This document shows positions 15,590-27,588 of a DNA stretch of 32,000 bases, piece after piece (position 1 is the first letter of the stretch; the number at the start of each line of letters is the position of its first letter). The notes beneath the pieces are model-generated. The model ran no database searches. It worked only from the letters and a program-made list of their open reading frames with translations, and was not told the DNA's origin. Position numbers and translations under genes: made by a program. The DNA comes from Pelodictyon phaeoclathratiforme BU-1 (GTDB taxonomy: Bacteria; Bacteroidota; Chlorobiia; Chlorobiales; Chlorobiaceae), in NCBI RefSeq assembly GCF_000020645.1, contig NC_011060.1:2252409-2284408 (forward strand). The letters are read 5' to 3'.

Positions 15590-15628
15590 GTGGCATACTC
15601 CAATTATGATTGTTTCAAAAAAAAATTC

Positions 15629-15678
15629 CCCTTTCAGAGTTCCAGAAAACAGAAAGACAGAAGATCAGGAAGAGGGAC
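15629..15678 (-). promoter_or_regulatory. Candidate IMH / target-recognition flank of VR2
   Basis: 50 nt identical to 22383-22432 (the flank of VR1) and absent next to the TR. It spans the last codons (SPSS*) and 3' UTR of the target gene. Confidence 0.5.
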
Positions 15679-18600
15679 TGGAACGGACAACCCGAAAGCC
15701 AAAACCGCTGAGCCAGCTCGCCGGATGACTGAAGTACCGGGCAGAGCAACGCAGAACGCCGGGAACATAGCCCCAGGAACCGCCGCGCAACGCACGGGCA
15801 AGAGCGTATTTTTCGTGTATATCATCCGTCCACTCCCACACATTGCCAGCCATATCGTACAACCCTTCCGGAGTTGCACCTTCAGGATAGCGCCCAACCG
15901 GTGTTGTGGCTCCCTCATTTTGATTAAAATTTGCCAGTTTTGAATTAGGCGCTGTATTTCCCCACGGATATTCACGTCCATCCTCCCCGGCAGCAGCATA
16001 TTCCCACTCGATTTCTTTGGGCAATCGATAAATATTAGCAATCCTGCCTTCGCTTTCCAGAAGAGAGAGCCACAAGCAATAGGCTTTGGCTGCATACCAG
16101 CTTATATCCATCACCGGTTGTTCCTCCTTGTTAAATCGCTTGTCGTCATCCGATTCAGAGCGGAAAAGCTTTGCCAGATCTCGTTTATCCTGAAGATAAT
16201 CGCTGAATCCATTAATGCTGTTCGCCATTTTCTGTAAGTGGTTGTGGTACAATTCCAGGGTAACAGCATCAATATCGGGCACCTTTCCTGACTGTAGGTA
16301 ATTGAGGAACTGCCGGTACAACTCGTTGGTAACCGTATATTTAGCGACATAAAGATCTGGCATCTTTTCAAGCTTCTCAGTCAACGAGAAAGCAAATGTG
16401 CCACCTTTTATCAGAATGTACTCTGCATGAAGTTTGTCAAATAAAACATTGTTTCTTCCTGATTCGATAAACGTCTTCACTATTGCAAGTGCTTCAGGCT
16501 TGCCAATGATTTTCAGGCACTCCATGATATATCGCTGCCGGTTTGGCGTGGTCTGAAGGTCAAACAACTTCTTTTGCAAGGCATCGATCTTCCGCTGTGG
16601 AGCCTCTTCGACAAGGGTGACGAGCAAGTCCTGCTGCTTTGATGTCAAGTTTTCCGTAACCGGCGAATCGAAAAGCTTCTGCATGAAGCTGTCAAAAAGC
16701 TCTTCATTTTCAACATGGCCGATAAAAAAGCGAAGCGGTTCTTGCCACCAATCGTCTCCAAACCTGGTAACAATGGTGTCGAGATAGTCTGGCCGGTACA
16801 TATTTTTGAGCAGTTGAACACCCGCAAGGTACTCACGGAATGATTTGTGCCGAAAAACATACTCCTTGTCGCCATACTCCACCAGCACCCCGGCCCGGTC
16901 CACAAGATTTTTGCAGAACTCCCCTGCGGGAAGAGAATTGTAGAGCGTGTCGAGCAGCTTTTGCATTTTCTGCTGCATTGCAATCCGGTCAGCTTCGTCT
17001 GTTTTCAGCTCTTCCTGCATCCAGAGAGAAACCGGGCTCAGTACTCGCCGAGCATCTTTGGCTGCAAGCAGCGGATAGATTCCCCTGCGACGGTCACGAT
17101 AATCGAGCATATAATTCAATGCAGCATCATAGAGTTCTGAACGCCCTGCTGGCAGAAACTCCCTCTCTTTCCAGAGCATTGCCATAATCTGCAAGAGCAG
17201 GGGGACACCTGCCAGAGAGTGCATACTCCTGTTTTTTTCCTGCGCGAGAAACGTAATAACTGCGTCAGCTTTTTGCGCCGCTTTTTGAGCGGCCTGTTGT
17301 TCCTGCCGAGCTCTCAACTCCGGTTCATCCCGAGCACTGAGAGGTATCTCCCGAAAAAATGCTGCACTAAACCAAAGATGCAAAAACTCAGCCTGTTTTT
17401 CCTTGGTAAAGTCCATGATATCGGCCCGCAGATGGCTTGCCTCAAGCTCGATGCCATCCCCCTTCCGGTAACCTGTGCTTCGGGAGGTAACCACAAATCG
17501 GGCATTTGTAAACCTTGAAACCGTTCGGTCAATCCAGTCACAAGCAGCCTTCCGATCATCGACGTTGCTGATTTCATCCAGTCCATCAAGGAGTACAAGG
17601 GTTGAGTCCTCACCAAGCCAGCCCGCAAAAAGGTTTTCTTTAATTTTGAGAAAATATTTTTCAGACCATGCGGAAAGAGCTGCCGGCAATGAGGGATAAC
17701 CGGTATCACTCTTGTTGATATCACGCAACGGGAGGTAAAAAACATTGACTGGTTCACTAAAACCAAATTCATGACATCTACCGTTATCAAGGCATGAAAG
17801 TGCATAATATTTGAGCAATGTTGTTTTACCAGAACCCGGATCGCCAATAACCAGTAGCAAGTGATGCTTTTGAAAAACAAAACTCATCACTTCTTCAGGG
17901 GCACGAACGCGCTCTTCTTTTTTGGGTTCACAGAGATCGCCCTCAGTATGGGATCGTGCTTCGCAGCGCCATGTATCAGAAAGACTCAACGAAACAAAGG
18001 TATCCTTATGCCTTACAGAAAAACTCTCGATTGCCGGAGAACCCGAAAGGTTGGTATTGCCAAGTTGCTCTGTCAGCGTTGAGTGGTAGAGCTGGAGAAG
18101 CGAATCTGTGTTGAAATCAAGTGGTTGATACCTGTTTTTCATTGAGGTATCATCACCACATTCTTTTGAACAGAACCACCGGTGAACCTGTATATCAAGC
18201 TGATGAGCAAGTTTTTCCCGGAACTCATGACGCTCGTCATACTCCTCTATCAGCGCATTCGATTGTAGTGATTCCCTGAAGCGATCAAGTGCCTCAATCT
18301 GTTCGATAGTAACATCCTTCCTCCGGTATGGCACATTTGAGAAATAGAGCATGACCAATTTTCCGGCTGCCATCATTCTCTCAACCTCTTCAACCGCCCC
18401 GCCTGGAGCAACACCAGTACCTGTGCCAATGCGTGTCCAGAAAATACCGATAGCAAAATCACATTCATCAACAATCTGTTTATTGAGTATCCCCTGCACC
18501 CGCCCCCCGGTTTCAGGCGCTGCATGTGATTCCCATAACACCGCTTCGAGCATCAGCGGACGCTGTGGCCGAGCATTCCATTTCTTTATGACATCTTCCG

Positions 18601-18688
18601 CCATTTCACGCTCAGCAACAACATCAGAGGGTGATGCGACAAGTACCTTTATGATCCGAATATTTTTATCACTCATTCTTTCTATCAT
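15665..18688 (-). CDS. STAND NTPase: N-terminal DUF4062/NDT/TIR-like domain - NACHT - C-terminal FGE-sulfatase (SUMF1, CLec-fold) domain; DGR target 2
   Basis: 1007 aa. Walker A GDPGSGKT (17822-17845) and NACHT-type Walker B LVLLDGLDEI. The C-terminal ~250 aa carry FGE-family motifs (YILIKGGTF, VSWYAAKAYCLWLS-like, RLPKEIEWEYAA, GLYDMAGNVWEWT, RGGSW, GFRVVRS). It is a paralog of 22419-25568. An alternative start is at 18676 (MSDK...). Confidence 0.85.
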   Translation of the reverse strand: MIERMSDKNIRIIKVLVASPSDVVAEREMAEDVIKKWNARPQRPLMLEAVLWESHAAPETGGRVQGILNKQIVDECDFAIGIFWTRIGTGTGVAPGGAVEEVERMMAAGKLVMLYFSNVPYRRKDVTIEQIEALDRFRESLQSNALIEEYDERHEFREKLAHQLDIQVHRWFCSKECGDDTSMKNRYQPLDFNTDSLLQLYHSTLTEQLGNTNLSGSPAIESFSVRHKDTFVSLSLSDTWRCEARSHTEGDLCEPKKEERVRAPEEVMSFVFQKHHLLLVIGDPGSGKTTLLKYYALSCLDNGRCHEFGFSEPVNVFYLPLRDINKSDTGYPSLPAALSAWSEKYFLKIKENLFAGWLGEDSTLVLLDGLDEISNVDDRKAACDWIDRTVSRFTNARFVVTSRSTGYRKGDGIELEASHLRADIMDFTKEKQAEFLHLWFSAAFFREIPLSARDEPELRARQEQQAAQKAAQKADAVITFLAQEKNRSMHSLAGVPLLLQIMAMLWKEREFLPAGRSELYDAALNYMLDYRDRRRGIYPLLAAKDARRVLSPVSLWMQEELKTDEADRIAMQQKMQKLLDTLYNSLPAGEFCKNLVDRAGVLVEYGDKEYVFRHKSFREYLAGVQLLKNMYRPDYLDTIVTRFGDDWWQEPLRFFIGHVENEELFDSFMQKLFDSPVTENLTSKQQDLLVTLVEEAPQRKIDALQKKLFDLQTTPNRQRYIMECLKIIGKPEALAIVKTFIESGRNNVLFDKLHAEYILIKGGTFAFSLTEKLEKMPDLYVAKYTVTNELYRQFLNYLQSGKVPDIDAVTLELYHNHLQKMANSINGFSDYLQDKRDLAKLFRSESDDDKRFNKEEQPVMDISWYAAKAYCLWLSLLESEGRIANIYRLPKEIEWEYAAAGEDGREYPWGNTAPNSKLANFNQNEGATTPVGRYPEGATPEGLYDMAGNVWEWTDDIHEKYALARALRGGSWGYVPGVLRCSARYFSHPASWLSGFGFRVVRSSPSS
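15679..15800 (-). repeat. DGR variable repeat VR2 (remote target)
   Basis: Aligns without gaps to TR 21850-21971. I count 20 differences, all at positions where the TR has T on the printed strand (A on the coding strand). Confidence 0.8.
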
Positions 18689-18759: not shown

Positions 18760-20158
18760 TCATGACGGAGAAGCAGAACGAACAACCCGAAAACCAATCT
18801 CGGAGGAACTATAAAACGGACTCTGAAAACCGGGAGCTGAGCAGCGCAGATAATCGGGAGTAGTGTCCCACGAACCGCCTCTCAAGAAAAAACGCTCTTT
18901 TTCTTTCTCATTCTCATTCCTGTGTTCCATCCACTCCCACACATTTCCTGCCATATCATACAACCCGTCAGGAGTCGCACCATCGGGATAAACACCAACC
19001 AGTGTTGTTGTCTCTTTCTTGCTCATCTTATAATTTGCACGTTGCTGCGTTGGAGAAGAACTGCCCCATGGATAGGGGCGTTGTTCCTTGCCGCTGGCAC
19101 AATATTCCCACTCAATCTCTGTCGGCAGCCGATACAATCCTGCATCCATGCATCCCGTTTCAAGACATGAAAGCCAGTAGCAATACGCTTTTGCGGCATA
19201 CCAGCTTACCCCAACCACCGGTTGATGATCCTTGTTGAATCGGTCATCATCTTCATAAACGGAACGTAAGCGCTCTGTCAAATCCGACTCCCCCTGAAGA
19301 TAGTCGTAGAATCCCGTCTCGTGAATTTTGTTTGCATAAAGCAAGCAACTTTTGCCTAAAAATTTCGGTAGACAGTACCTCAATAAAAGAGCCCTTGCCT
19401 GACAGGTAGTTGATAAACTGTCGATAGCGAGAGTTAGTCACAGCATATTTTGCCATGTAGAGATCAGTCACAACTTCGGACTTGTCTGTCAAAGAGTAGG
19501 TGAATGTACCTCCCTTGATCAGGATATAATGTGCACCAAGCTTGTCAAGCAGCATAAAGTTTATCCAGCGCTCTACCAACAAAACTTTATCTGCGTAAGA
19601 GATATCATCAAGATCCAACCCTCGTTGTTTCATAAGATCGGGCTGAGTCGCCTTAAACTCCATATAATTGTCAAGAATCACTTTAGGCCCAGGAATTGCA
19701 TCATTAATCTTGAGTGCATGCAAAACATCCCTGATACACTTGATCAACTTCTTAATATCATTGTCATGAGATTTGACATCTTGACCCGATATATCCGAAA
19801 TAAACTGTTGATAACGATGGGGATCCCTGTCAAGAATAAGCGACACTTTAGACTTCTGCAACTTTGAACCAAATCGTTTGGCACCAAGAAAAAGCCCTAG
19901 CTCAAAGGGCATATTAAATCTGGGCAGCTTGGTCTTTTTATCAGGTTCTGTTCTTGATATATCATGGATTCCACAACAACACTCTTCAATGATTCGATTG
20001 ATTTTTTCTATGCGTACCTGGCCGCCATCATCAAATTCGTAAGCACAGCGAGGACGAAAACCACACTTATAGACCGTAAAAAGAATAGCATCAAAAAACG
20101 GAATGTACTCTTTGTCAAAAGGGCAATTAATAAACACATTGAGGTTATGTGGTGGCAT
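18760..20158 (-). pseudogene. Frameshifted gene: N-terminal NDT/TIR-like Rossmannoid domain fused to an FGE-sulfatase (CLec-fold) domain; no NACHT
   Basis: ORFs 19253-20158 and 18760-19383 overlap in different frames and together rebuild one FGE domain (YILIKGGTFTYSL ... VSWYAAKAYCYWLS ... GLYDMAGNVWEWM ... RGGSW ... GFRVVRS). The frame switch maps to a tandem GCAAGCAA at 19341-19348. Confidence 0.7.
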
Positions 20159-20240: not shown

Positions 20241-20468
20241 CTACGGGACATCCTCTCCCGATCGTGAATCCTCTACAGCCTCCAGAATATCTTTCGTTGC
20301 TGCTCTTGTTTTCACCCCTTTGACATCAAAAGGAGAATTTGAAAGCTGTTTATACACAACGGCAAATTGTTCACCACTCCGTTTTTTGATAATCACCTCT
20401 TCCGTACGAGCAAGATCAAACACCTTGGCGAATTTCTTTCGCGCTTCAGAATAGCTGTAAACTTTCAT
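20241..20468 (-). CDS. Orphan Phd/YefM-like antitoxin
   Basis: 75 aa. MKVYSYSEARKKFAKVFDLARTEEVIIKKRSGEQFAVV is a Phd/YefM-type N-terminus. Only ~80 nt separate it from the next gene, so there is no room for a cognate toxin. Confidence 0.65.
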   Translation of the reverse strand: MKVYSYSEARKKFAKVFDLARTEEVIIKKRSGEQFAVVYKQLSNSPFDVKGVKTRAATKDILEAVEDSRSGEDVP

Positions 20469-20610: not shown

Positions 20611-21642
20611 TCAGCTCTTTTCCACCAGCCCCAACGAGCGCAACAGATTGCGGGTATCGGCCTGCCGGGCGTGACCAACCCACCCGGCAAGGCTTTTCTG
20701 CAAGGTTTCCGGCTTGGCAAGCAGGGTGCATTGTATCCGTTTTTTTGCTCTCCGAACATTTGCTGAAGGAAGTAACCGGTAGCTCTGAAAAACTTTTTGC
20801 CCGAGAAAGCACTTCCCTTCTGTTGCCGGGTAAAGCTCTGTTCTCCCTGAATTAAGCGTCAATCTGAATTGTTGCAAAAACTCTTCGATTGCTTTTTTCC
20901 ACTCCCACAATTCATCCTTGCTATCGGAAAACAAGACGTAATCATCAACGTATCTTACGTAGCCTTTGCATCGCAACACCTCTTTTACGTAGTGATCCAG
21001 AAAGCTGAGGTAGTAGTTGGCAAAAAACTGGCTGGTCAGGTTCCCGATAGGCAGCCCTTTTCTCCGTTCATGAGGGGTAAAAAGGGTGTCACCGGGGAAA
21101 TAGTGAAAATGCTCTGCCTGTATGTTACTGTTATCAATAATGGTATCAATAAGCCACAAAGTGTCAGCGCAGGCTATTTTTCTGCGAAGCAACGATTTGA
21201 GTATCTCGTGATCGATTGATGGAAAATATTTCCGGATATCACACTTCAGCACATAAGCATACTTTTTCAGATAGTGCTGGTAGCGCTCTATGGCCTTGTG
21301 TGTTCCCTTGGCCGTTCTGTTGGCATAGGTGTCGAAAATAAAGCTCCGTTCAAGAAGAGGGCCAACAATAGTGATCAGGGCATGATGCACAACGCGGTCT
21401 TTAAAGGGAGCTGCGCTGATCATTCTTGGTTTTGGCTTGTAGATGCTGAAGGTTTTGTATGAACCGGGCTGCCAGGTTTTCGTTCGCAACTCCGAAAGAA
21501 TCTGCCAGAGGTTCTCTTCCAGAAAGGTGAAAAAGTGCAGCACCGACTGGTTTTCGCGCTTTCCTTTCGCCGCTTTTTGGGCTGCTGAAAGCACATTTTC
21601 GAAGGTTACAATGCTCTGAAAAAGGTTTTTGCTGGTTTTCAT
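20611..21642 (-). CDS. Diversity-generating retroelement reverse transcriptase
   Basis: 343 aa. RT motifs include LPIGNLTSQFFANYYL (the DGR-type I/LGxxxSQ motif) and the catalytic YVRYVDD. The size, the N-terminus (NLFQSIVTFENVLSAAQKAAKGKR) and the adjacent TR and avd fit DGR RTs. Confidence 0.9.
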   Translation of the reverse strand: MKTSKNLFQSIVTFENVLSAAQKAAKGKRENQSVLHFFTFLEENLWQILSELRTKTWQPGSYKTFSIYKPKPRMISAAPFKDRVVHHALITIVGPLLERSFIFDTYANRTAKGTHKAIERYQHYLKKYAYVLKCDIRKYFPSIDHEILKSLLRRKIACADTLWLIDTIIDNSNIQAEHFHYFPGDTLFTPHERRKGLPIGNLTSQFFANYYLSFLDHYVKEVLRCKGYVRYVDDYVLFSDSKDELWEWKKAIEEFLQQFRLTLNSGRTELYPATEGKCFLGQKVFQSYRLLPSANVRRAKKRIQCTLLAKPETLQKSLAGWVGHARQADTRNLLRSLGLVEKS

Positions 21643-21651
21643 CGTTTTGCC

Positions 21652-21699
21652 AGAAAAAAAACAGGCCGCTTTTTCAATTACTTACTCAAGCGACCTGTT
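21652..21699 (-). terminator. Intrinsic-terminator-like hairpin between the TR/spacer and the RT start
   Basis: On the minus-strand RNA, AACAGGUCGCUU (21699-21688) pairs with AAGCGGCCUGUU (21671-21660). That is 12 bp including one G-U, with a 16-nt loop, followed by U7. It ends 11 nt before the RT ATG. Confidence 0.4.
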
Positions 21700-21849
21700 T
21701 TATGGGTACTGTTCGTGCATGTTCCACTGAGTGCAATGGCAACATGCCGCAGGAGAAAGAGCCCGGGATGTCATGCCCAAAAAACTGTCCGTTATTCCTT
21801 GAAAGAACGGCATCATAATGGGCTTTAACACGCATCGAAAGGGGCATGA

Positions 21850-21974
21850 TTGGAACGGACAACCCGAAAGCCAATATTGTTGTTCCTGTTCGCCGGATGA
21901 TTGTTGTTCCGGGCAGAGCAACGCAGATTGTCGGGATTATTGTTCCAGGAACCGCCGCGCAACGCACGGGCAGA
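21850..21974 (-). repeat. DGR template repeat (TR)
   Basis: Non-coding 125-nt copy of the VRs between avd and the RT. In the target frame it reads ...[31 protein letters not shown]..., with 11 AAY codons. The boundaries are approximate (+/- 5 nt). Confidence 0.85.
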
Positions 21975-22037: not shown

Positions 22038-22373
22038 TCAAGCTTTTTTTATCCATCCGCCCAGCATCTTCCCCAATTCTGAAATCTGGCTGCTCCCAAA
22101 CTCATAGGAGTTCAAGCTGATAAATTTCATGTCAAAACTCAATCGAACCAGAATGCGCAAACGCGTCAGCACCTCATCGGCCTGCTCCAGCAATGGTCGT
22201 TTGACGTTCCGCATATTGGCAACTGCCACAAGCTCTGTAAACTCGAGTATAGAATTTTCGATACGCACAGCAATACTGAACCGGTAGCTTTTGGGAAATT
22301 TCCCAGTATGCAGCAGCAGCCATTTCGAAAAATCGTAGGCCTTTTTGACGATCAGCATTTCATGATTCTGCAC
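22038..22373 (-). CDS. avd: Accessory variability determinant (Avd-like four-helix-bundle protein)
   Basis: 111 aa. KKAYDFSKWLLLHTGKFPKSYRFSIAVRIE ... ELGKMLGGWIKK matches my recollection of Avd / 23S-rRNA-IVS-family proteins. Its position between the VR and the TR is canonical. Confidence 0.8.
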   Translation of the reverse strand: MQNHEMLIVKKAYDFSKWLLLHTGKFPKSYRFSIAVRIENSILEFTELVAVANMRNVKRPLLEQADEVLTRLRILVRLSFDMKFISLNSYEFGSSQISELGKMLGGWIKKA

Positions 22374-22382
22374 AAATTTTTT

Positions 22383-22432
22383 CCCTTTCAGAGTTCCAGA
22401 AAACAGAAAGACAGAAGATCAGGAAGAGGGAC
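22383..22432 (-). promoter_or_regulatory. Candidate IMH / target-recognition flank of VR1
   Basis: 50 nt identical to 15629-15678. The TR flank diverges here (coding sense: VR ...CCGTTCCAGTCCCTCTTCC versus TR ...CCGTTCCAATCATGCCCCT). Confidence 0.5.
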
Positions 22433-25400
22433 TGGAACGGACAACCCGAAAGCCAACATTGCCGCTCCTGTGCGCCGGATGAAGGTCGTACCGGGCAGAG
22501 CAACGCAGACCGTCGGGATACTTGCTCCAGGAACCGCCGCGCAACGCACGGGCAGATTTAAAATACTCATCCGACGTATTGTTTTCGTATAAATCTTCCA
22601 TCCACTCCCACACATTGCCTGCCATATCATATAGCCCCTCCGGTGTAGCGCCATCGGGATAGCGCCCTACAGGAGTTGTGGCGCCTTCATTACTATCATA
22701 ATTGGCTCTAGTGGTTGAGGGCTCCTCCTCGCCCCAAGGGTATGTTCTGTTCTCTTTGCCACCTGCGGCATATTCCCACTCCTTTTCTGTGGGCAAATGA
22801 TAAAGGGTGCCATCCTGACCATTGCTCTCAAGCAACGAAAGCCAGAGGCAATAGGCCTTGGCGGCATACCAGGTTACACCCATCACCGGTTGATCTTCCT
22901 TGTTGAATCGCTTGTCGTCATCATAAAAAGAAGCAAGAAGCTTTACCAGCGATTCTTCACCCTTGAGATAATCGCCAAACCCCTCAATCTCCCCAGCCTC
23001 AGATCGTAGAGTTTTTGTATACAATTCAACCGATACATCCTTGGCAAATACAGGCTCTCGGGAATCCAGATAAGCAATAAATTGCCGGTACAACTTGTTG
23101 GTAACCGTATATTTGGCAACGTAAAGGTCTGGCACTGTTTCCTGCTTCTCAGTCACGGAGAAGGTAAAGGTACCTCCCTCGATAAGGATGTATTGCGCAT
23201 CGAGTTCATAGGGATTGTATCTGACAGAAATTGCCTTCACACTAACATTCACCTTACAGACGATGTCAGCGGTGATATCAGAGGCAATTTTAACCCCTGG
23301 AATTTCATAAGCAAGACGCAGAATATCGGCGTCTTTGGTGCAGTTAGCGTCAATGAACTTCTGTACAGCTTTGACAGCTTCCGGCTTACCGATGGTTTTC
23401 AAGCACTCCAAGAGATATCGCTGCCTATTTGGCGTTGTTGCCGGGTCAAGCAACTTCTTTTGCAAGGCGTCAACCTTCCTCTGGGGAGCCTCCTCAACAA
23501 GGGCAACAAGCAAGTCCTGCTGCTTTTGAGTCAAGTTTTCTGTAACCGGCGAATCAAAAAGCATCTGCATAAAGCTGTCGAACAGTTCCGCATCATCAAC
23601 ATGGCCGATAAAAAAGCGAAATACCTCCTGCCACCAGTCGTCACCAAAGCGGGTAACAAGCGTGTCAAGATAACCTGGCCGGTGCATGTTTTTCACAAGC
23701 TGCACACCCGCCAGGTACTCTCTGAATGATTTGTGCCGGAAAACATACTCTCGGTCACCATATTCCACGAGCACCCCGGCCCGATCAACAAGGTTACGGC
23801 AGAACTCCCCTGCGGGAAGCGAGTTGCAGAGGGTATCAAGCAGTTCCTGCATTTTTAACTGCATGTCAATTCTACCAACCTCGTCCTTTTTAAGCTCCTC
23901 CTGCATCCAGAGTGAGACCGGACTCAGAACGCGCCGGGCATCTTCTGCCCCAAGCAATGGGGATATTCCTCTACGCCGGTCACGATAATCGAGCATAAAA
24001 TTCAATGCCGCATCATAGAGCTTCAACCGGCTACCCGGCATATATTCTCGCTCTTTCCAGAGCATGGCCATAATCTGCAACAGCAAGGGAATCCCTGCGA
24101 GTGTTTGCATACTTCTATTTTTTTCCTGTGCCAGAAACGCAATAAGAGCATCTGCTTTTTTCGTAGCCACATGTTCCTGCTGGCTTCGCCACGCCGCCTG
24201 ATATCCTGCTGGAGGAATCTCTCCCAAGTATGCAGCCTTGAACCACTGCTGTAAAAATTGCGCCTGCTGCTCTTTTGTAAAATCCATGATATCAGCCCTC
24301 AAATGGCCAGCTTCAAGCTCAATGCCATCCCCTTTCCGATAACCCGTGCTTCGTGACGTCACAACAAAACGGGCATTGGTAAATCCACCAACCGTGCGGT
24401 CTATCCAGCCACAGACCGCTATCCGGTCGTGAACATCGCTGATTTCGTCGAGACCATCGAGAAGCACCAATGTTGACGGCTTGTCAAGCCAGCCGGAAAA
24501 GAGTGTTTCTTCAATCTTGAGAAAATGTTTTTCCGACCATGCCGCCAGGTTTTCCGATAATGACATGTAGCCGGTATCACTTTTCTTGAGTTCACGCAAC
24601 GGAAGAAAAAAAACATTGACTGGTTCACGAAAGCCAAACTCCTGATAGCGTTTGTTATCGAAGCAGGAGAGTGCATAATATTTGAGCAAAGTTGTCTTTC
24701 CCGAACCGGGATCACCGATAACGAGCAGTAAAAGATTATGCTGAAAAACAAAGCTCATCACCTCTTCAGGGGTACTGTTGCGTTCATCCTTCTGCGGTTC
24801 GCACAAAGCCTCCCCTGCACGAAATCGCTCTTCGCACCGCGATGAACCTGAGAGAGTTAACGAAACGAAGGTGTCGGATAGTTTTACTGAAAAACTTTCA
24901 AGGGCGGGAGAGCCTGTCAGGGTGATATTTCCGAGTTGTTGTTTCAATGTGGATTGGTAGCGGAACAAATCAGCCGCAGCGTTGCGGGTATGCGAGCAAA
25001 TACGATTGCCTGAAAAAACGACATCCGAATTTTTTTGAGCGAACCAGTTCTGAATCTGAAGGTCAAGATGTGTGACAAGATCGCTCTTGAACATGGAGAG
25101 ATCATCATATTCCCACAAAAGAAGATAATTTTGCAATGTTTTCCGGAAAGTCTCAAGCTCTCCAACCTGCCGGGAAAATTCTGCCACCTTGCCTGCATCA
25201 GAAGTGTCAAGAGGATACTTTGCTCTGGAAAAATAGAGCATGACCTGTTTTTCATCGTTCATCAGGCGCTGTACCTCTTCAACTGCTCCTCCCGGCGCAA
25301 CACCTGTATCGGTGCCAATCCTTGTCCAAAAAATAGCAATGGCAAAATGGCATTGATCTACGAACTGTCTGTTGAGAATTCCCTGCGTCCGTTCCCCGCT

Positions 25401-25568
25401 TTGAGGAGCAGCGCGTTCCTCCCACAATACAGGATCAAGTATGAGTTCAGACTCTGGATGTCGGTGATTCCAGCCCAATATTACCTCTTTGGCAATATCC
25501 CGCTCTTCTGCTACATCTGAAGGCGAAGCAACAAGAACTTTTATTTTGCGATACAATTTATCACTCAT
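22419..25568 (-). CDS. STAND NTPase: N-terminal DUF4062/NDT/TIR-like domain - NACHT - C-terminal FGE-sulfatase (CLec-fold) domain; DGR target 1
   Basis: 1049 aa. GDPGSGKTTLLKYYALSC, LVLLDGLDEI and FTNARFVVTSRSTGYRKGDGIELEA are shared with the 15665-18688 paralog. The C-terminal FGE motifs are YILIEGGTF, VTWYAAKAYCLWLS, GLYDMAGNVWEWM, RGGSW and GFRVVRS. Confidence 0.85.
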   Translation of the reverse strand: MSDKLYRKIKVLVASPSDVAEERDIAKEVILGWNHRHPESELILDPVLWEERAAPQSGERTQGILNRQFVDQCHFAIAIFWTRIGTDTGVAPGGAVEEVQRLMNDEKQVMLYFSRAKYPLDTSDAGKVAEFSRQVGELETFRKTLQNYLLLWEYDDLSMFKSDLVTHLDLQIQNWFAQKNSDVVFSGNRICSHTRNAAADLFRYQSTLKQQLGNITLTGSPALESFSVKLSDTFVSLTLSGSSRCEERFRAGEALCEPQKDERNSTPEEVMSFVFQHNLLLLVIGDPGSGKTTLLKYYALSCFDNKRYQEFGFREPVNVFFLPLRELKKSDTGYMSLSENLAAWSEKHFLKIEETLFSGWLDKPSTLVLLDGLDEISDVHDRIAVCGWIDRTVGGFTNARFVVTSRSTGYRKGDGIELEAGHLRADIMDFTKEQQAQFLQQWFKAAYLGEIPPAGYQAAWRSQQEHVATKKADALIAFLAQEKNRSMQTLAGIPLLLQIMAMLWKEREYMPGSRLKLYDAALNFMLDYRDRRRGISPLLGAEDARRVLSPVSLWMQEELKKDEVGRIDMQLKMQELLDTLCNSLPAGEFCRNLVDRAGVLVEYGDREYVFRHKSFREYLAGVQLVKNMHRPGYLDTLVTRFGDDWWQEVFRFFIGHVDDAELFDSFMQMLFDSPVTENLTQKQQDLLVALVEEAPQRKVDALQKKLLDPATTPNRQRYLLECLKTIGKPEAVKAVQKFIDANCTKDADILRLAYEIPGVKIASDITADIVCKVNVSVKAISVRYNPYELDAQYILIEGGTFTFSVTEKQETVPDLYVAKYTVTNKLYRQFIAYLDSREPVFAKDVSVELYTKTLRSEAGEIEGFGDYLKGEESLVKLLASFYDDDKRFNKEDQPVMGVTWYAAKAYCLWLSLLESNGQDGTLYHLPTEKEWEYAAGGKENRTYPWGEEEPSTTRANYDSNEGATTPVGRYPDGATPEGLYDMAGNVWEWMEDLYENNTSDEYFKSARALRGGSWSKYPDGLRCSARYDLHPAHRSGNVGFRVVRSSPSS
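22433..22557 (-). repeat. DGR variable repeat VR1
   Basis: Gap-free alignment to TR 21850-21974. I count 14 differences, 13 at TR adenines (coding strand) and one at a non-adenine (22521). Confidence 0.85.
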
Positions 25569-26148: not shown

Positions 26149-26223
26149 GGCATTCACAAGAAGTAATAAGGTGACACTATCTTGTACAAGGTAACTCCAT
26201 TCATACAAAAATCATTACCCGTT

Positions 26224-26313
26224 TTATGAGAAACAACCCAATCCCAGCGAGCGCAAAAGGTTACTGATATCGGCCTGCCGGGCTTGATGCTGTTTCACCT
26301 CTTCAAGCTTCGC
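26224..26313 (-). pseudogene. Relic 3' end of a second DGR-type RT gene
   Basis: The minus strand reads AKLEEVKQHQARQADISNLLRSLGLGCFS*, against the intact RT C-terminus GWVGHARQADTRNLLRSLGLVEKS*. Nucleotide similarity to 20620-20680 is visible by eye. It is bounded upstream by a stop, and no RT body is present. Confidence 0.45.
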
Positions 26314-26365
26314 TTACAATCTGCGCAAGTGGACTGCTCATTGTTTTTACTGGTTTCCGCTTTTG

Positions 26366-26750
26366 TCAAGCAATTTTCGGAGGCTGGATTGCCGAGGAGT
26401 TGAAGGCTACAAGCTTGTGCCAGTTGATAGCACCACTGTCGTCGCAATACTCGATACTGAATTGGCGGGTAAATTTATTGAGCATCCTGTCATAGGAGTC
26501 CTGAAACTCTTCGCTTTTTTCCTGGGCCTTGTGACCCAGCGGGTCGATAAGCTCGGTGTAGAGATTGGGATCTGAAGAGATAAACTCCCAAAAAGTCTGG
26601 CCGCAATATTTGAAATAGTCGCCCTGATCGGGGGTACTAACTCTGCCGTAACAGCAGCCATTAACGGCAACAACCTATTCTTTTCTGATGAAAGGTGCCG
26701 ATGTTCTCTTCAACGTAGGTCAATACGTCGTTCAGGATAAGTGGTTTCAT
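26366..26750 (-). pseudogene. Remnant of a probable type II restriction endonuclease (frameshifted, apparently missing its middle)
   Basis: AAGGAGGAG RBS plus an ATG at 26750, overlapping the methyltransferase 3' end, gives MKPLILNDVLTYVEENIGTFHQKRIGCCR*. A startless frame (26674-26366) reads ...GCCYGRVSTPDQGDYFKYCGQTFWEFISSDPNLYTELIDPLG...*. The RE assignment comes from context and remembered motifs only. Confidence 0.35.
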
Positions 26751-27588
26751 GCTCCTCCTTTTGTTCCAGCAGATAGAGTTCAACCGGTTTCAGCTCCGTT
26801 TTTACCATGTCGTAGTACTCTGGCACAATTTCAATGCCGATAGAGTTTCTTCTCATTCTTTGCGCTACCGCATTGGTTGTTCCTGACCCCATGAATGGAT
26901 CGAGCACAGTATCTCCCTCTTTGGTAAAGAGCTTGATAAACCATTCCGGAAGCCCTTCAGGAAAGGCTGCGCTGTGTTTTTTGTTGTTGCATTCTGTGGC
27001 GAGGTGCAGCACGTTGGTCGGATAGGCCATCTCCCGATCCAGCCAGTTTGAGATATTTTTTCCGAACCCGCTGCCGACCTTCGATTCATCACGCGTTTTG
27101 TCGGTCTCACTCAGGTTTTTCAGGCGGGTTTTCGACCAATCGCCCATTGGCACCATAACGGCTTTCTGGTCCATATAAAAGTGCTTGCTTTTATTGAACT
27201 GGATCAACCGTTCCCAGGAATCCCTGAATCGGTTTGGCCATTTACCGGGATAACAGTTTTTTTTATGCCAGATAAATTCTTCTGTCCAGAACCAGCCCTG
27301 CTTCCTCATTTCAAGAATGAGTTCCATCACGTAGGTACTCCGTTCGCCATTGACAACCTTCTCCTTGATGTTCAGGACAAAGGTACCTGTTGGTTTCAGC
27401 ACCCTCAGAAGCTGCAGGGATATCGGTAAAAACCACTCAACATAATCGTCCGGATGAAAGCCGCCATAGGTTTGTTTTCTCTGGTCAGCATAGGGCGGGG
27501 AGGTAAATATCAGGTCTACCGAATCATCCGGCAACGTTTTGAGCAGTTGTGTGCAGTCTCCAAGGTAGAGATCCGTTTTTGTTTCCAT
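26710..27588 (-). CDS. Beta-class DNA methyltransferase (N4-cytosine or N6-adenine)
   Basis: 292 aa. Motif IV TSPPY precedes motif I DPFMGSGTT (beta-class order). The SPPY form hints at m4C specificity. Confidence 0.85.
   Translation of the reverse strand: METKTDLYLGDCTQLLKTLPDDSVDLIFTSPPYADQRKQTYGGFHPDDYVEWFLPISLQLLRVLKPTGTFVLNIKEKVVNGERSTYVMELILEMRKQGWFWTEEFIWHKKNCYPGKWPNRFRDSWERLIQFNKSKHFYMDQKAVMVPMGDWSKTRLKNLSETDKTRDESKVGSGFGKNISNWLDREMAYPTNVLHLATECNNKKHSAAFPEGLPEWFIKLFTKEGDTVLDPFMGSGTTNAVAQRMRRNSIGIEIVPEYYDMVKTELKPVELYLLEQKEEHETTYPERRIDLR

What the first reader, a model, noticed from the sequence alone, without database searches (positions are those of the whole stretch)
15629..15800. 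Second, remote VR in a paralogous NACHT gene served by the same TR
A full-length paralog (15665-18688, 1007 aa, same three-domain architecture) carries VR2 6171 nt from the TR and 6754 nt from VR1, on the same strand. VR2 matches the TR scaffold exactly except at 20 TR-adenine positions.

The rest of the two genes has diverged like ordinary paralogs. The VR scaffold and 50 nt of 3' flank are identical. This argues that both loci are kept in register by homing from one TR.

The result is one RT/TR pair diversifying two NLR-like receptors, i.e. a small receptor repertoire.
Basis: seen in the sequence. Interest (0 to 1): 0.75.

Follow-up and report, generated by a model that had tools for sequence, protein, structure and literature searches.

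The report
Second target of one DGR retroelement
One diversity-generating retroelement in the green sulfur bacterium Pelodictyon phaeoclathratiforme BU-1 carries a single template that matches the variable ends of two paralogous NACHT-lectin "receptor" genes, which is real but is an already published type of arrangement.

Summary
VR2 (15679-15800, minus strand) aligns without gaps to the TR (21851-21972). It has 20 mismatches and all fall on TR adenines (27 A in 122 nt, p=2e-17). VR1 and VR2 are also identical for 50 nt beyond the end of TR homology. The two genes are otherwise old paralogs: 67% amino-acid identity and saturated synonymous sites, yet no synonymous difference in the VR and coding tail.

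A sister lineage has the same two-target layout. There, non-adenine substitutions specific to each lineage's TR reappear in both of its VRs, and 14 of 19 VR2 differences sit at TR adenines. So VR2 has been written from this TR.

Two caveats apply:
- The TR lacks the 50-nt flank, so homing cannot explain its identity. Exchange between the VRs, or selection on a cis element, is needed.
- VR1 and VR2 are invariant in all public assemblies of this strain that cover them, so current activity is not shown.

The window is Pelodictyon phaeoclathratiforme BU-1. Its DGRs, multi-target DGRs and NACHT-lectin targets in multicellular bacteria are already published.

A side observation may be new. The flank is an array of five YCTG motifs spaced 7-8 nt apart. 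The same array follows DGR VRs in several phyla and in phage contigs.

The parts
15665..18688 (-). Target gene 2 (1007 aa, ACF44387): DUF4062-like/PDC-S60-like N-terminus, NACHT NTPase, C-terminal FGE-sulfatase (C-type lectin fold) domain ending in VR2
   Evidence: ORF. Pfam: NACHT E=1.8e-12 and FGE-sulfatase E=8.4e-41. DUF4062 E=0.0018, below the curated cutoff. PADLOC PDC-S60 E=3e-22 over residues 11-168. The sequence is 100% identical to a P. phaeoclathratiforme BU-1 protein.
15679..15800 (-). VR2: 122 nt in register with the TR; 20 mismatches, all at TR adenines
   Evidence: The AAC/AAT codons of the TR are replaced and the reading frame stays open.
15629..15678 (-). VR2 3' flank, 50 nt identical to the VR1 flank and absent from the TR. 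It holds the boundary G (15678), the stop codon (15667-15665) and five YCTG motifs at 15669-15666, 15661-15658, 15653-15650, 15646-15643 and 15638-15635
   Evidence: One search gives the extent of identity. Searches show that the array is a conserved, VR-specific motif class. One search shows that the 7-bp inverted repeat GTTCCAG/CTGGAAC does not fold better than shuffled sequence.
18760..20158 (-). Third FGE-domain gene (465 aa when intact; weak TIR-like N-terminus, no NACHT). It is frameshifted in this window by an extra T near 19338-19340. Its VR-like end has decayed and lacks the CCAGTC boundary and the YCTG array, so it is not a current target
   Evidence: Pfam FGE-sulfatase E=1.5e-36 and E=4e-41 on the intact copy. 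The alignment to the TR shows many non-adenine mismatches and an indel. The frameshift and one SNP (19564) separate the window from all metagenome copies. Its FGE domain is 55% identical to that of target 2.
20241..20468 (-). Phd/YefM-like antitoxin gene fragment (75 aa) between the RT gene and gene 3
   Evidence: Called gene in L001 11175-11402. Pfam PhdYeFM_antitox E=1.1e-7.
20611..21642 (-). DGR reverse transcriptase (343 aa, ACF44389)
   Evidence: Pfam RVT_1 E=1.6e-19. PADLOC RT E=8.6e-48. The codons for YVDD and IGNLTSQ are readable in the DNA.
21729..21850 (-). Conserved structured region 3' of the TR (spacer of the DGR RNA): an invariant 8-bp stem UCAUGCCC/GGGCAUGA encloses two hairpins
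   Evidence: RNAalifold on 7 TR flanks from Chlorobiaceae, KSB1 and Aminicenantes gave 28 pairs, 6 of them with compensatory changes.
21851..21972 (-). Template repeat (TR), 27 adenines, rich in AAC/AAT codons
   Evidence: It is the only TR-type end (CCAATCATGCC) in the window.
22038..22373 (-). Accessory variability determinant (bAvd-like)
   Evidence: Pfam bAvd E=1.7e-20.
22433..22554 (-). VR1: 14 mismatches to the TR, 13 at adenines and one T>G at 22521
22383..22432 (-). VR1 3' flank, identical to the VR2 flank, with the YCTG array at 22423-22389
22419..25568 (-). Target gene 1 (1049 aa, ACF44391): NACHT plus FGE-sulfatase, paralog of target 2
   Evidence: Pfam NACHT E=3e-14 and FGE-sulfatase E=8e-48. 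Accession.

Best explanation
This is a chromosomal diversity-generating retroelement (DGR) of Pelodictyon (Chlorobium) phaeoclathratiforme BU-1.

**Layout on the minus strand.** Target 1 (NACHT-CLec) with VR1, then bAvd, TR, structured spacer, RT, Phd-like gene, a decayed FGE gene, and target 2 (NACHT-CLec) with VR2.

**Proposed mechanism.**
1. The TR with its spacer is transcribed.
2. The RT, with Avd, copies it into cDNA and misincorporates opposite template adenines.
3. The cDNA replaces the homologous 122-nt VR at the 3' end of either target gene.
4. This rewrites about 13 codons on the ligand-binding face of the C-terminal lectin-fold domain and leaves the scaffold untouched.

**What is shown.** The anatomy is shown, as is the strictly adenine-limited TR-VR2 difference. 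Lineage-specific TR substitutions are shared with both VRs.

**What is inferred.** The enzymology comes by homology with the Bordetella phage BPP-1 DGR. The receptor role of the NACHT-CLec proteins follows the proposal of Dore et al. 2024.

**The 50-nt flank.** The TR does not carry the flank that VR1 and VR2 share. I read it as the target-side recognition region, an array of five YCTG motifs. It seems to be kept identical between the two loci by occasional VR-VR gene conversion on top of selection. That part is inference.
For: **Adenine specificity.** 20 of 20 VR2 mismatches lie at TR adenines, p=2e-17.

**Homogenised VR in diverged paralogs.** There are 0 synonymous differences in the 44 VR-plus-tail codons, against pS=0.63 in the rest of the genes.

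**Intact machinery.** RT, bAvd and TR are all present and intact.

**Conserved spacer RNA.** The region 3' of the TR folds into a structure kept across phyla.

**Sister lineage.** It has the same two-target synteny. TR-specific non-adenine bases at alignment positions 99 and 114 are mirrored in both VRs of each lineage. 14 of 19 VR2 differences between lineages lie at shared TR adenines.

**Internal control.** The third FGE paralog lacks the boundary and the array, and its VR-like end has drifted at non-adenine sites.

**Orientation.** Both targets are co-oriented with the TR. By local GC skew they are co-directional with replication. That is the orientation reported to favour retrohoming (PMC12875486).

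**Flank motif.**
- All 64 arrays (four or more YCTG at 7-8 nt period) found in 1.2 Mb of related loci lie just 3' of a VR end.
- TR flanks lack them.
- The array also follows phage VRs that have A-specific TR partners.
Against: **No consensus-level variation.** VR1 and VR2 are identical in every public contig of this strain that covers them, from at least 8 samples. Those contigs differ from the window by only 1-2 SNPs plus one indel over up to 21 kb.

**The one variant is ambiguous.** In L093, VR2 is a VR2/VR1 hybrid. This could be gene conversion or an assembly chimera.

**The sister lineage may be idle.** Both its VRs carry four non-adenine differences from their own TR, so homing there may have stopped.

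**No classic hairpin.** No GC-rich hairpin of the BPP-1 type follows the VR.

**Untested functions.** The role of the YCTG array and the receptor function of the proteins are both untested.
Confidence: 0.85

Rival explanations
1. VR2 is a fossil. It was written from the TR at some time in the past, but the DGR or this target site is no longer active. The two genes are then now ordinary fixed paralogs.
For: VR1 and VR2 are identical in all assemblies of the strain. The three sister-lineage contigs are also identical to each other. In them both VRs have 4 non-adenine mismatches to their own TR. The neighbouring gene 3 shows that such targets do decay.
Against: In BU-1, VR2 has no non-adenine mismatch. 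The derived TR bases at alignment positions 99 and 114 are present in both VRs, so writing happened after the split from the sister lineage. RT, Avd, TR and the spacer structure are intact. The assemblies are nearly clonal, so consensus identity is a weak test.
Confidence: 0.25
2. The VR2-TR similarity comes from recombination or gene conversion among the three repeats, or from a recent partial duplication of the 3' end, and not from retrohoming into VR2.
For: The 50-nt flank shared by VR1 and VR2 is absent from the TR, so it must have spread by DNA-level exchange. L093 shows a VR2 whose 3' half equals VR1. In the sister lineage both VRs share non-adenine bases at positions 24 and 111 that their TR lacks.
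Against: Gene conversion would copy the adenine positions as well. Instead VR2 differs from both the TR and VR1 only at TR adenines, with its own pattern. The chance of that by ordinary mutation is 2e-17. Exchange between VRs probably happens in addition to homing, not instead of it.
Confidence: 0.07
3. VR2 is served by a different TR elsewhere in the genome. BU-1 has a second DGR.
For: BU-1 has two DGR RTs (PMC3521204; Dore Dataset S6). I could not scan the whole BU-1 genome.
Against: VR2 matches this TR at all 95 non-adenine positions, so no other TR could match better unless it were identical. The other NACHT-FGE cluster of the organism has VR ends only 70-73% similar to this TR.
Confidence: 0.03

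Closest known systems
Clade 5D cellular DGRs of multicellular bacteria that diversify STAND/NACHT-CLec proteins (Dore et al. 2024, PMC10907252; e.g. Thiohalocapsa PB-PSB1 DGR 3 and DGR 6)
   Same: The cassette has an RT with Avd and a TR, flanked by two duplicated target genes. Each target has a central NACHT/STAND NTPase and a C-terminal FGE-type lectin domain holding one VR. The host forms multicellular nets. BU-1 is itself in that paper's data. Dataset S6 lists RT gene 642728382 with domain hits at genes RT-2 and RT+2. That matches ACF44387, ACF44389 and ACF44391 here.
   Different: Nothing essential differs. Here toxin-antitoxin genes (Phd/ParE) and a decayed third FGE gene sit inside the cassette. 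Unlike in PB-PSB1, no population-level VR variation could be seen.
Bordetella phage BPP-1 DGR (mtd-avd-TR-brt), the experimental prototype
   Same: Adenine-specific TR-to-VR information transfer. The VR lies at the C-terminus of a lectin-fold protein. Avd is the accessory protein. A structured spacer RNA lies 3' of the TR. The VR and TR ends differ (IMH versus IMH*).
   Different: BPP-1 has one target and is phage-borne. Its target recognition uses IMH plus a GC-rich hairpin with a 4-nt loop (PMC3240598). Here there is no such hairpin. Instead an array of five YCTG motifs follows the VR.
Multi-target and non-adjacent-target DGRs (Treponema denticola; surveys by Schillinger 2012, PMC3521204, and Wu 2018, PMC5758913)
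   Same: One TR matches several VRs in paralogous genes with only A-to-N differences. [quoted passage not shown] The BU-1 RTs are listed in the 2012 survey, which cites Simon and Zimmerly 2008.
   Different: Treponema targets are lipoproteins spread over the genome. Here both targets lie within 5 kb of the RT.
Bacterial NACHT (bNACHT) and Avs antiviral STAND proteins
   Same: Tripartite layout: N-terminal effector-like domain, NACHT NTPase with Walker A (GDPGSGKTT) and Walker B (LVLLDGLDE), and a C-terminal sensor domain.
   Different: The sensor here is a DGR-diversified lectin fold, not TPR or other repeats. No defence phenotype is known for CLec-type members (PMC10907252).

Membership tests
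Diversity-generating retroelement (DGR) | Reverse transcriptase of the DGR type | tested here: met
   Pfam RVT_1 E=1.6e-19. PADLOC RT E=8.6e-48. The codons for YVDD and IGNLTSQ are readable in the DNA. No phylogenetic placement was done here. Clade 5 membership is taken from Dore et al. Datasets S3 and S6.
Diversity-generating retroelement (DGR) | A TR/VR pair that differs only at template adenines | tested here: met
   VR2: 20 of 20 mismatches at A, p=2e-17. VR1: 13 of 14 at A.
Diversity-generating retroelement (DGR) | Accessory protein (Avd or HRDC) | tested here: met
   bAvd PF22296, E=1.7e-20, 22038-22373.
Diversity-generating retroelement (DGR) | VR inside the C-terminal C-type-lectin/FGE fold of the target protein, with the frame kept open | tested here: met
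   FGE-sulfatase hits reach residues 1002 of 1007 and 1044 of 1049. The codon view shows AAC/AAT positions replaced with no stop codon. No structure model was made.
Diversity-generating retroelement (DGR) | IMH-type 3' boundary that distinguishes VR from TR | tested here: met
   TR-VR homology ends at CCA[A in TR / G in VR]TC in this locus and in every related locus examined.
Diversity-generating retroelement (DGR) | GC-rich hairpin/cruciform downstream of IMH (BPP-1 and Legionella type; present in 34% of DGRs according to PMC5758913) | tested here: not met
   Only a 7-bp inverted repeat with a 32-nt loop is present. The fold z-score is +0.19. This is not a universal defining feature.
Diversity-generating retroelement (DGR) | Evidence that the VR is actually rewritten | tested here: inconclusive
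   Between lineages the answer is yes: 14 of 19 VR2 differences are at TR adenines, and TR-specific bases are mirrored in the VRs. Within the BU-1 strain the answer is no: VR2 is identical in 8 contigs and one hybrid exists. Read-level data are not available.
DGR with multiple / non-adjacent targets (criterion of Wu et al. 2018) | The extra VR has only A-to-N differences to the TR and is not part of another DGR | tested here: met
   The window holds only one RT and one TR.
NLR-like STAND (bacterial NACHT) protein | NACHT NTPase module with Walker A and Walker B motifs | tested here: met
   PF05729, E=1.8e-12 and 3e-14, above the gathering score. G282-T290 and D368-E372 are invariant in 15 homologs.
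NLR-like STAND (bacterial NACHT) protein | N-terminal effector and C-terminal sensor that confer immunity or cell death | not testable with these tools
   The N-terminus gives only a sub-threshold DUF4062 hit and a match to the defence candidate PDC-S60. No functional data exist.

The most novel reading that the evidence does not exclude
The 50-nt flank that VR1 and VR2 share is an instance of a DGR target-site element that I did not find described. It is an array of four to six YCTG (mostly TCTG) motifs with a 7-8 nt period on the sense strand. The array begins at or near the stop codon, directly 3' of the IMH-type boundary.

It marks VRs and never TRs. It occurs in Chlorobiaceae, Aminicenantes, KSB1, Pirellulales, Cytophagia and Calditrichia, and in phage DGRs with Mtd-like targets.

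It could be the recognition or priming signal for the roughly two thirds of DGRs that lack the BPP-1-type hairpin. Two speculative ideas, neither tested: a binding array for the pentameric Avd-RT complex, or a cluster of primase-type CTG sites on the lagging-strand template next to the cDNA annealing site.
Probability: 0.3. Interest if true: 0.7.

Novelty: already known. Interest (0 to 1): 0.3.

Why it matters
The finding itself adds little. Multi-target DGRs have been catalogued since 2012. NACHT-lectin targets in multicellular bacteria were described in 2024, and this genome is part of those datasets.

It is still a clean textbook case. It has an internal control (the decayed third paralog) and a sister-lineage comparison showing TR-to-VR information flow into both genes.

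The flank may matter more. How DGRs without a GC hairpin find their targets is an open question. A short, transplantable, VR-specific motif array would be directly testable in the reconstituted E. coli system. It would also be useful for retargeting DGRs.

Tried and rejected
- **Rfam and tRNA scans.** Both found nothing in the window.
- **Hairpin or cruciform in the flank.** The 7-bp inverted repeat GTTCCAG/CTGGAAC folds no better than shuffles. It does not covary across loci: L013 and L022 break it, and families ending in GCCCCAG keep only CCAG/CTGG. I rejected it as a structure.
- **Simple terminator scan.** Nothing was found at the flanks.
- **Third VR.** The FGE gene at 18760-20158 has a VR-like end with many non-adenine mismatches and an indel. 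I rejected it as a current target.
- **Mapping this RT to the 2012 survey.** I tried to link it to the GI numbers of Schillinger 2012 through their supplements. The TR sequence is not held there. The supplements of Wu 2018 are not held. The mapping therefore rests on gene-order arithmetic (ACF44387/44389/44391 against IMG RT-2 and RT+2, with the two RTs 147-148 genes apart). It is an inference.
- **Genome scan.** A whole-genome search for further VRs of this TR was not possible.
- **Literature searches for the YCTG array.** I searched DGR terms with TCTG, IMH, cruciform and direct repeats. The only TCTG match I opened was a primer sequence. This does not prove novelty.
Full report

Yes, in every detail.

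A repeat search found one 175-nt family with three copies at 15626-15800, 21798-21972 and 22380-22554. The genes lie on the minus strand. I read the three copies there in ungapped register.
- VR2 (15679-15800) differs from the TR (21851-21972) at exactly 20 positions. All are TR adenines: 10 A>G, 9 A>T and 1 A>C. The TR has 27 A in 122 nt, so the hypergeometric probability is 2e-17.
- VR1 (22433-22554) has 14 mismatches. Thirteen are at A and one is T>G at 22521.
- The TR is built of AAC/AAT codons. The VRs replace them without creating stop codons.
- VR1 and VR2 are identical from the exact 5' end of TR homology (15800 / 22554) to 50 nt beyond its 3' end (15629 / 22383).
- The offsets are 6172 nt (TR to VR2) and 6754 nt (VR1 to VR2).

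**2. What are the genes?**

The minus strand reads as follows:

| Element | Coordinates | Evidence |
|---|---|---|
| Phd and ParE | upstream of target 1 | called genes, Pfam |
| Target 1, 1049 aa | 25568-22419 | NACHT E=3e-14, FGE-sulfatase E=8e-48 |
| bAvd | 22373-22038 | E=1.7e-20 |
| TR | 21972-21851 | repeat alignment |
| Structured spacer | 21850-21729 | RNAalifold |
| RT | 21642-20611 | RVT_1 E=1.6e-19; YVDD and IGNLTSQ codons |
| Phd-like fragment | 20468-20241 | Pfam E=1.1e-7 |
| Third FGE gene | 20158-18760 | FGE-sulfatase |
| Target 2, 1007 aa | 18688-15665 | NACHT E=1.8e-12, FGE-sulfatase E=8e-41 |
| Lipocalin | downstream of target 2 | Pfam |

Both NACHT proteins have a sub-threshold DUF4062-like N-terminus. 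That N-terminus matches the PADLOC defence candidate PDC-S60 (E=3e-22 and 1e-18). Walker A and Walker B residues are invariant among 15 homologs.

The two targets are 67% identical in amino acids. Synonymous sites are essentially saturated (pS 0.63, dS about 1.35). The 44 codons of VR plus tail hold 0 synonymous and 20 non-synonymous differences.

The third FGE gene serves as an internal control.
- Its FGE domain is 55% identical to that of target 2.
- Its VR-like end differs from the TR at many non-adenine sites and has an indel.
- It lacks the VR-type boundary and flank.

**3. Source organism and population data**

Target 2 is 100% identical to a protein of Pelodictyon phaeoclathratiforme BU-1, whose chromosome is 3,018,238 bp. 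The accessions are ACF44387 (target 2), ACF44389 (RT) and ACF44391 (target 1).

Exact-protein look-ups returned contigs from many metagenomes and one MAG. They are 99.97-99.99% identical to the window.
- The window differs from all of them by one SNP (19564) and one extra T near 19338-19340. Both lie in the third FGE gene, which is intact (465 aa) elsewhere.
- VR1 with its flank is exact in every contig that covers it. VR2 with its flank is exact in 8 contigs.
- The only variant is L093, a scaffold containing a run of N. Its VR2 keeps the VR2 pattern in the 5' half and has exactly the VR1 pattern in the 3' half, 13 nt in all. This is either VR1-to-VR2 gene conversion or an assembly chimera.

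So there is no evidence for ongoing diversification at the consensus level. Because the assemblies are nearly clonal, this is a weak test.

**4. Evidence that VR2 has been written from this TR**

A sister lineage (RT 92% identical; contigs L215-L217) has the same syntenic cassette: Phd, NACHT-FGE, bAvd, TR, RT, Phd, NACHT-FGE and lipocalin.

Comparing the two lineages over 125 aligned nt:
- 14 of 19 VR2 differences and 17 of 24 VR1 differences lie at sites that are A in both TRs. Such sites are 28 of 125.
- At non-adenine positions 99 and 114 the two TRs differ. There both VRs of each lineage carry their own TR's base.

This is the signature of TR-to-VR information transfer into both genes after the lineages split.

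In the sister lineage both VRs also share four non-adenine differences from their TR. Homing there may have ceased, or the VRs may have exchanged sequence with each other.

Two other relatives differ in layout.
- L014 (target 75% identical) keeps Avd, TR, RT, the toxin-antitoxin pair, the FGE gene, NACHT-FGE and lipocalin. Of 20 VR-TR mismatches, 15 are at A.
- L013 and L094 have a single NACHT-FGE gene next to the lipocalin gene and no adjacent RT.

The other NACHT-FGE cluster of the organism (L007, three paralogs, ACF43802-43809) is only 70-73% similar to this TR. It is not a competing source.

**5. The flank**

It cannot be. After CCA[A]TC the TR continues with an unrelated, conserved spacer. 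That spacer folds into a structure kept from Chlorobiaceae to KSB1 and Aminicenantes: an invariant 8-bp stem plus two hairpins, with 6 pairs showing compensatory changes.

On the VR side the sequence is CCAGTC, the stop codon, then five YCTG motifs spaced 8, 8, 7 and 8 nt apart (15669-15635 and 22423-22389).

In 78 related loci from the genome collection, together with the loci fetched earlier and the window:
- 51 of 59 unique VR flanks have four or more YCTG in 66 nt. The mean is 4.5, against 0.5-0.6 in shuffles and random genomic segments.
- CTG-to-CTG spacing is 8 nt (151 cases) or 7 nt (55 cases).
- TR flanks have a mean of 0.7.
- All 64 arrays found in 1.2 Mb, searched on both strands, lie directly 3' of a VR end on the gene strand.

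A pattern scan of IMG/VR also found the array right after Mtd-like VR ends in nine phage contigs. In five of these a TR copy lies 400 nt away with mismatches only at A: 11/11, 8/8, 13/14, 12/12 and 11/11.

The spacer bases between the CTG cores vary among loci. Between VR1 and VR2 of BU-1 they are identical, and they are nearly identical among the three L007 paralogs. So selection on the motif alone does not explain 50/50 identity. Occasional VR-VR gene conversion is the simplest addition. The L093 hybrid and the shared non-adenine bases in the sister lineage fit that.

The 7-bp inverted repeat in the flank does not fold significantly and does not covary.

I found no description of this array in the literature I could search. 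Wu et al. report that only 34% of DGRs have the GC-rich inverted repeat.

**6. Orientation**

The plus strand has negative GC skew throughout, including at third codon positions of genes on both strands. The minus-strand DGR and both targets are therefore probably co-directional with replication. That places the strand complementary to the cDNA on the lagging-strand template, the orientation reported to favour retrohoming (PMC12875486). This rests on only 32 kb and is weak.

**7. Comparison with what is known**

- Multi-VR DGRs are well documented. Schillinger et al. 2012 found that about a seventh of DGRs have several VRs. They list both BU-1 RTs, one of them with four VRs.
- Wu et al. 2018 give 15% of DGRs with more than one target and 45 of 372 with non-adjacent targets. 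They call a target remote only above 100 kb.
- Dore et al. [quoted passage not shown]
- Their Dataset S6 lists domain hits within 20 kb of each RT. For BU-1 it lists RT 642728382 with hits at genes RT-2 and RT+2, and a second RT 148 genes away with three hits.
- The first entry fits the accession order found here. The mapping is by gene-order arithmetic, so it is an inference.

**8. Verdict**

The reasoning about the flank is corrected. Current activity is unproven. The arrangement is already known, so interest is low to moderate. The YCTG array in the flank is the item worth following up.

Noticed in passing
window 15635-15669 and 22389-22423 (minus strand); also L007, L013-L092 and phage loci L104, L117, L132, L135, L136, L155, L164, L171, L183: An array of five YCTG motifs with a 7-8 nt period lies directly 3' of VR ends. 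All 64 arrays found in 1.2 Mb are VR-adjacent, and TR flanks lack them. The array occurs in several phyla and in phage DGRs. I found no description of it in the searched literature.
   Followed up: partly
window 18760-20158 (extra T near 19338-19340; SNP at 19564): The third FGE-domain gene is frameshifted in this window but intact (465 aa) in every metagenome copy that covers it. The only two differences between the window and all those contigs both fall in this gene. Its VR-like end has decayed.
   Followed up: partly
L093 6586-6616 (= window 15733-15703): One scaffold (JGI 3300014786) carries a VR2 whose 3' half is exactly the VR1 sequence. This is either gene conversion between the two VRs or an assembly chimera across the shared 22-nt and 74-nt blocks.
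   Followed up: partly
L094 (ENA ERZ28593417), aligned to window 26676-25228 and 18683-13985: A related strain (about 95% nt identity) has a single NACHT-FGE gene between Phd-ParE and the lipocalin gene. It has no Avd, TR, RT or third FGE gene. This is either a deletion by recombination between the paralogs or the ancestral state.
   Followed up: no
window 22521: VR1 has one non-adenine mismatch to the TR: T>G, turning codon AAT into AAG. VR2 keeps the T.
   Followed up: no
window 21729-21850 and 21650-21701 (minus strand): A conserved RNA structure lies 3' of the TR: an 8-bp invariant stem UCAUGCCC/GGGCAUGA with two inner hairpins. Just before the RT start codon sits a 14-bp hairpin followed by T8, which looks like a terminator. 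L014 keeps that hairpin with compensatory changes.
   Followed up: partly
window 26238-26287 versus 20625-20674: A 50-nt stretch upstream of the Phd-ParE-target 1 genes is 82% identical to the 3' end of the RT gene. This suggests that an RT-antitoxin-target unit was once duplicated in tandem.
   Followed up: no
L007 1-13100 (same organism, ACF43802-ACF43809): A second cluster holds three NACHT-FGE paralogs interleaved with HipA, PIN and HigB toxin-antitoxin genes. Its three VR-type ends share a near-identical 75-nt flank with the same YCTG array. No RT lies within the 23 kb seen.
   Followed up: partly
window 26209-26709: The DNA methylase gene (26710-27588) is followed by a remnant of an EcoO109I-type restriction gene. 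That gene is intact in relatives (L094, L215). About 370 nt of it do not align in the window.
   Followed up: no
L005 4627 (= window 21853): One metagenome copy has a C>A change in the TR, three bases before its 3' boundary (GTTCCA becomes GTTACA).
   Followed up: no
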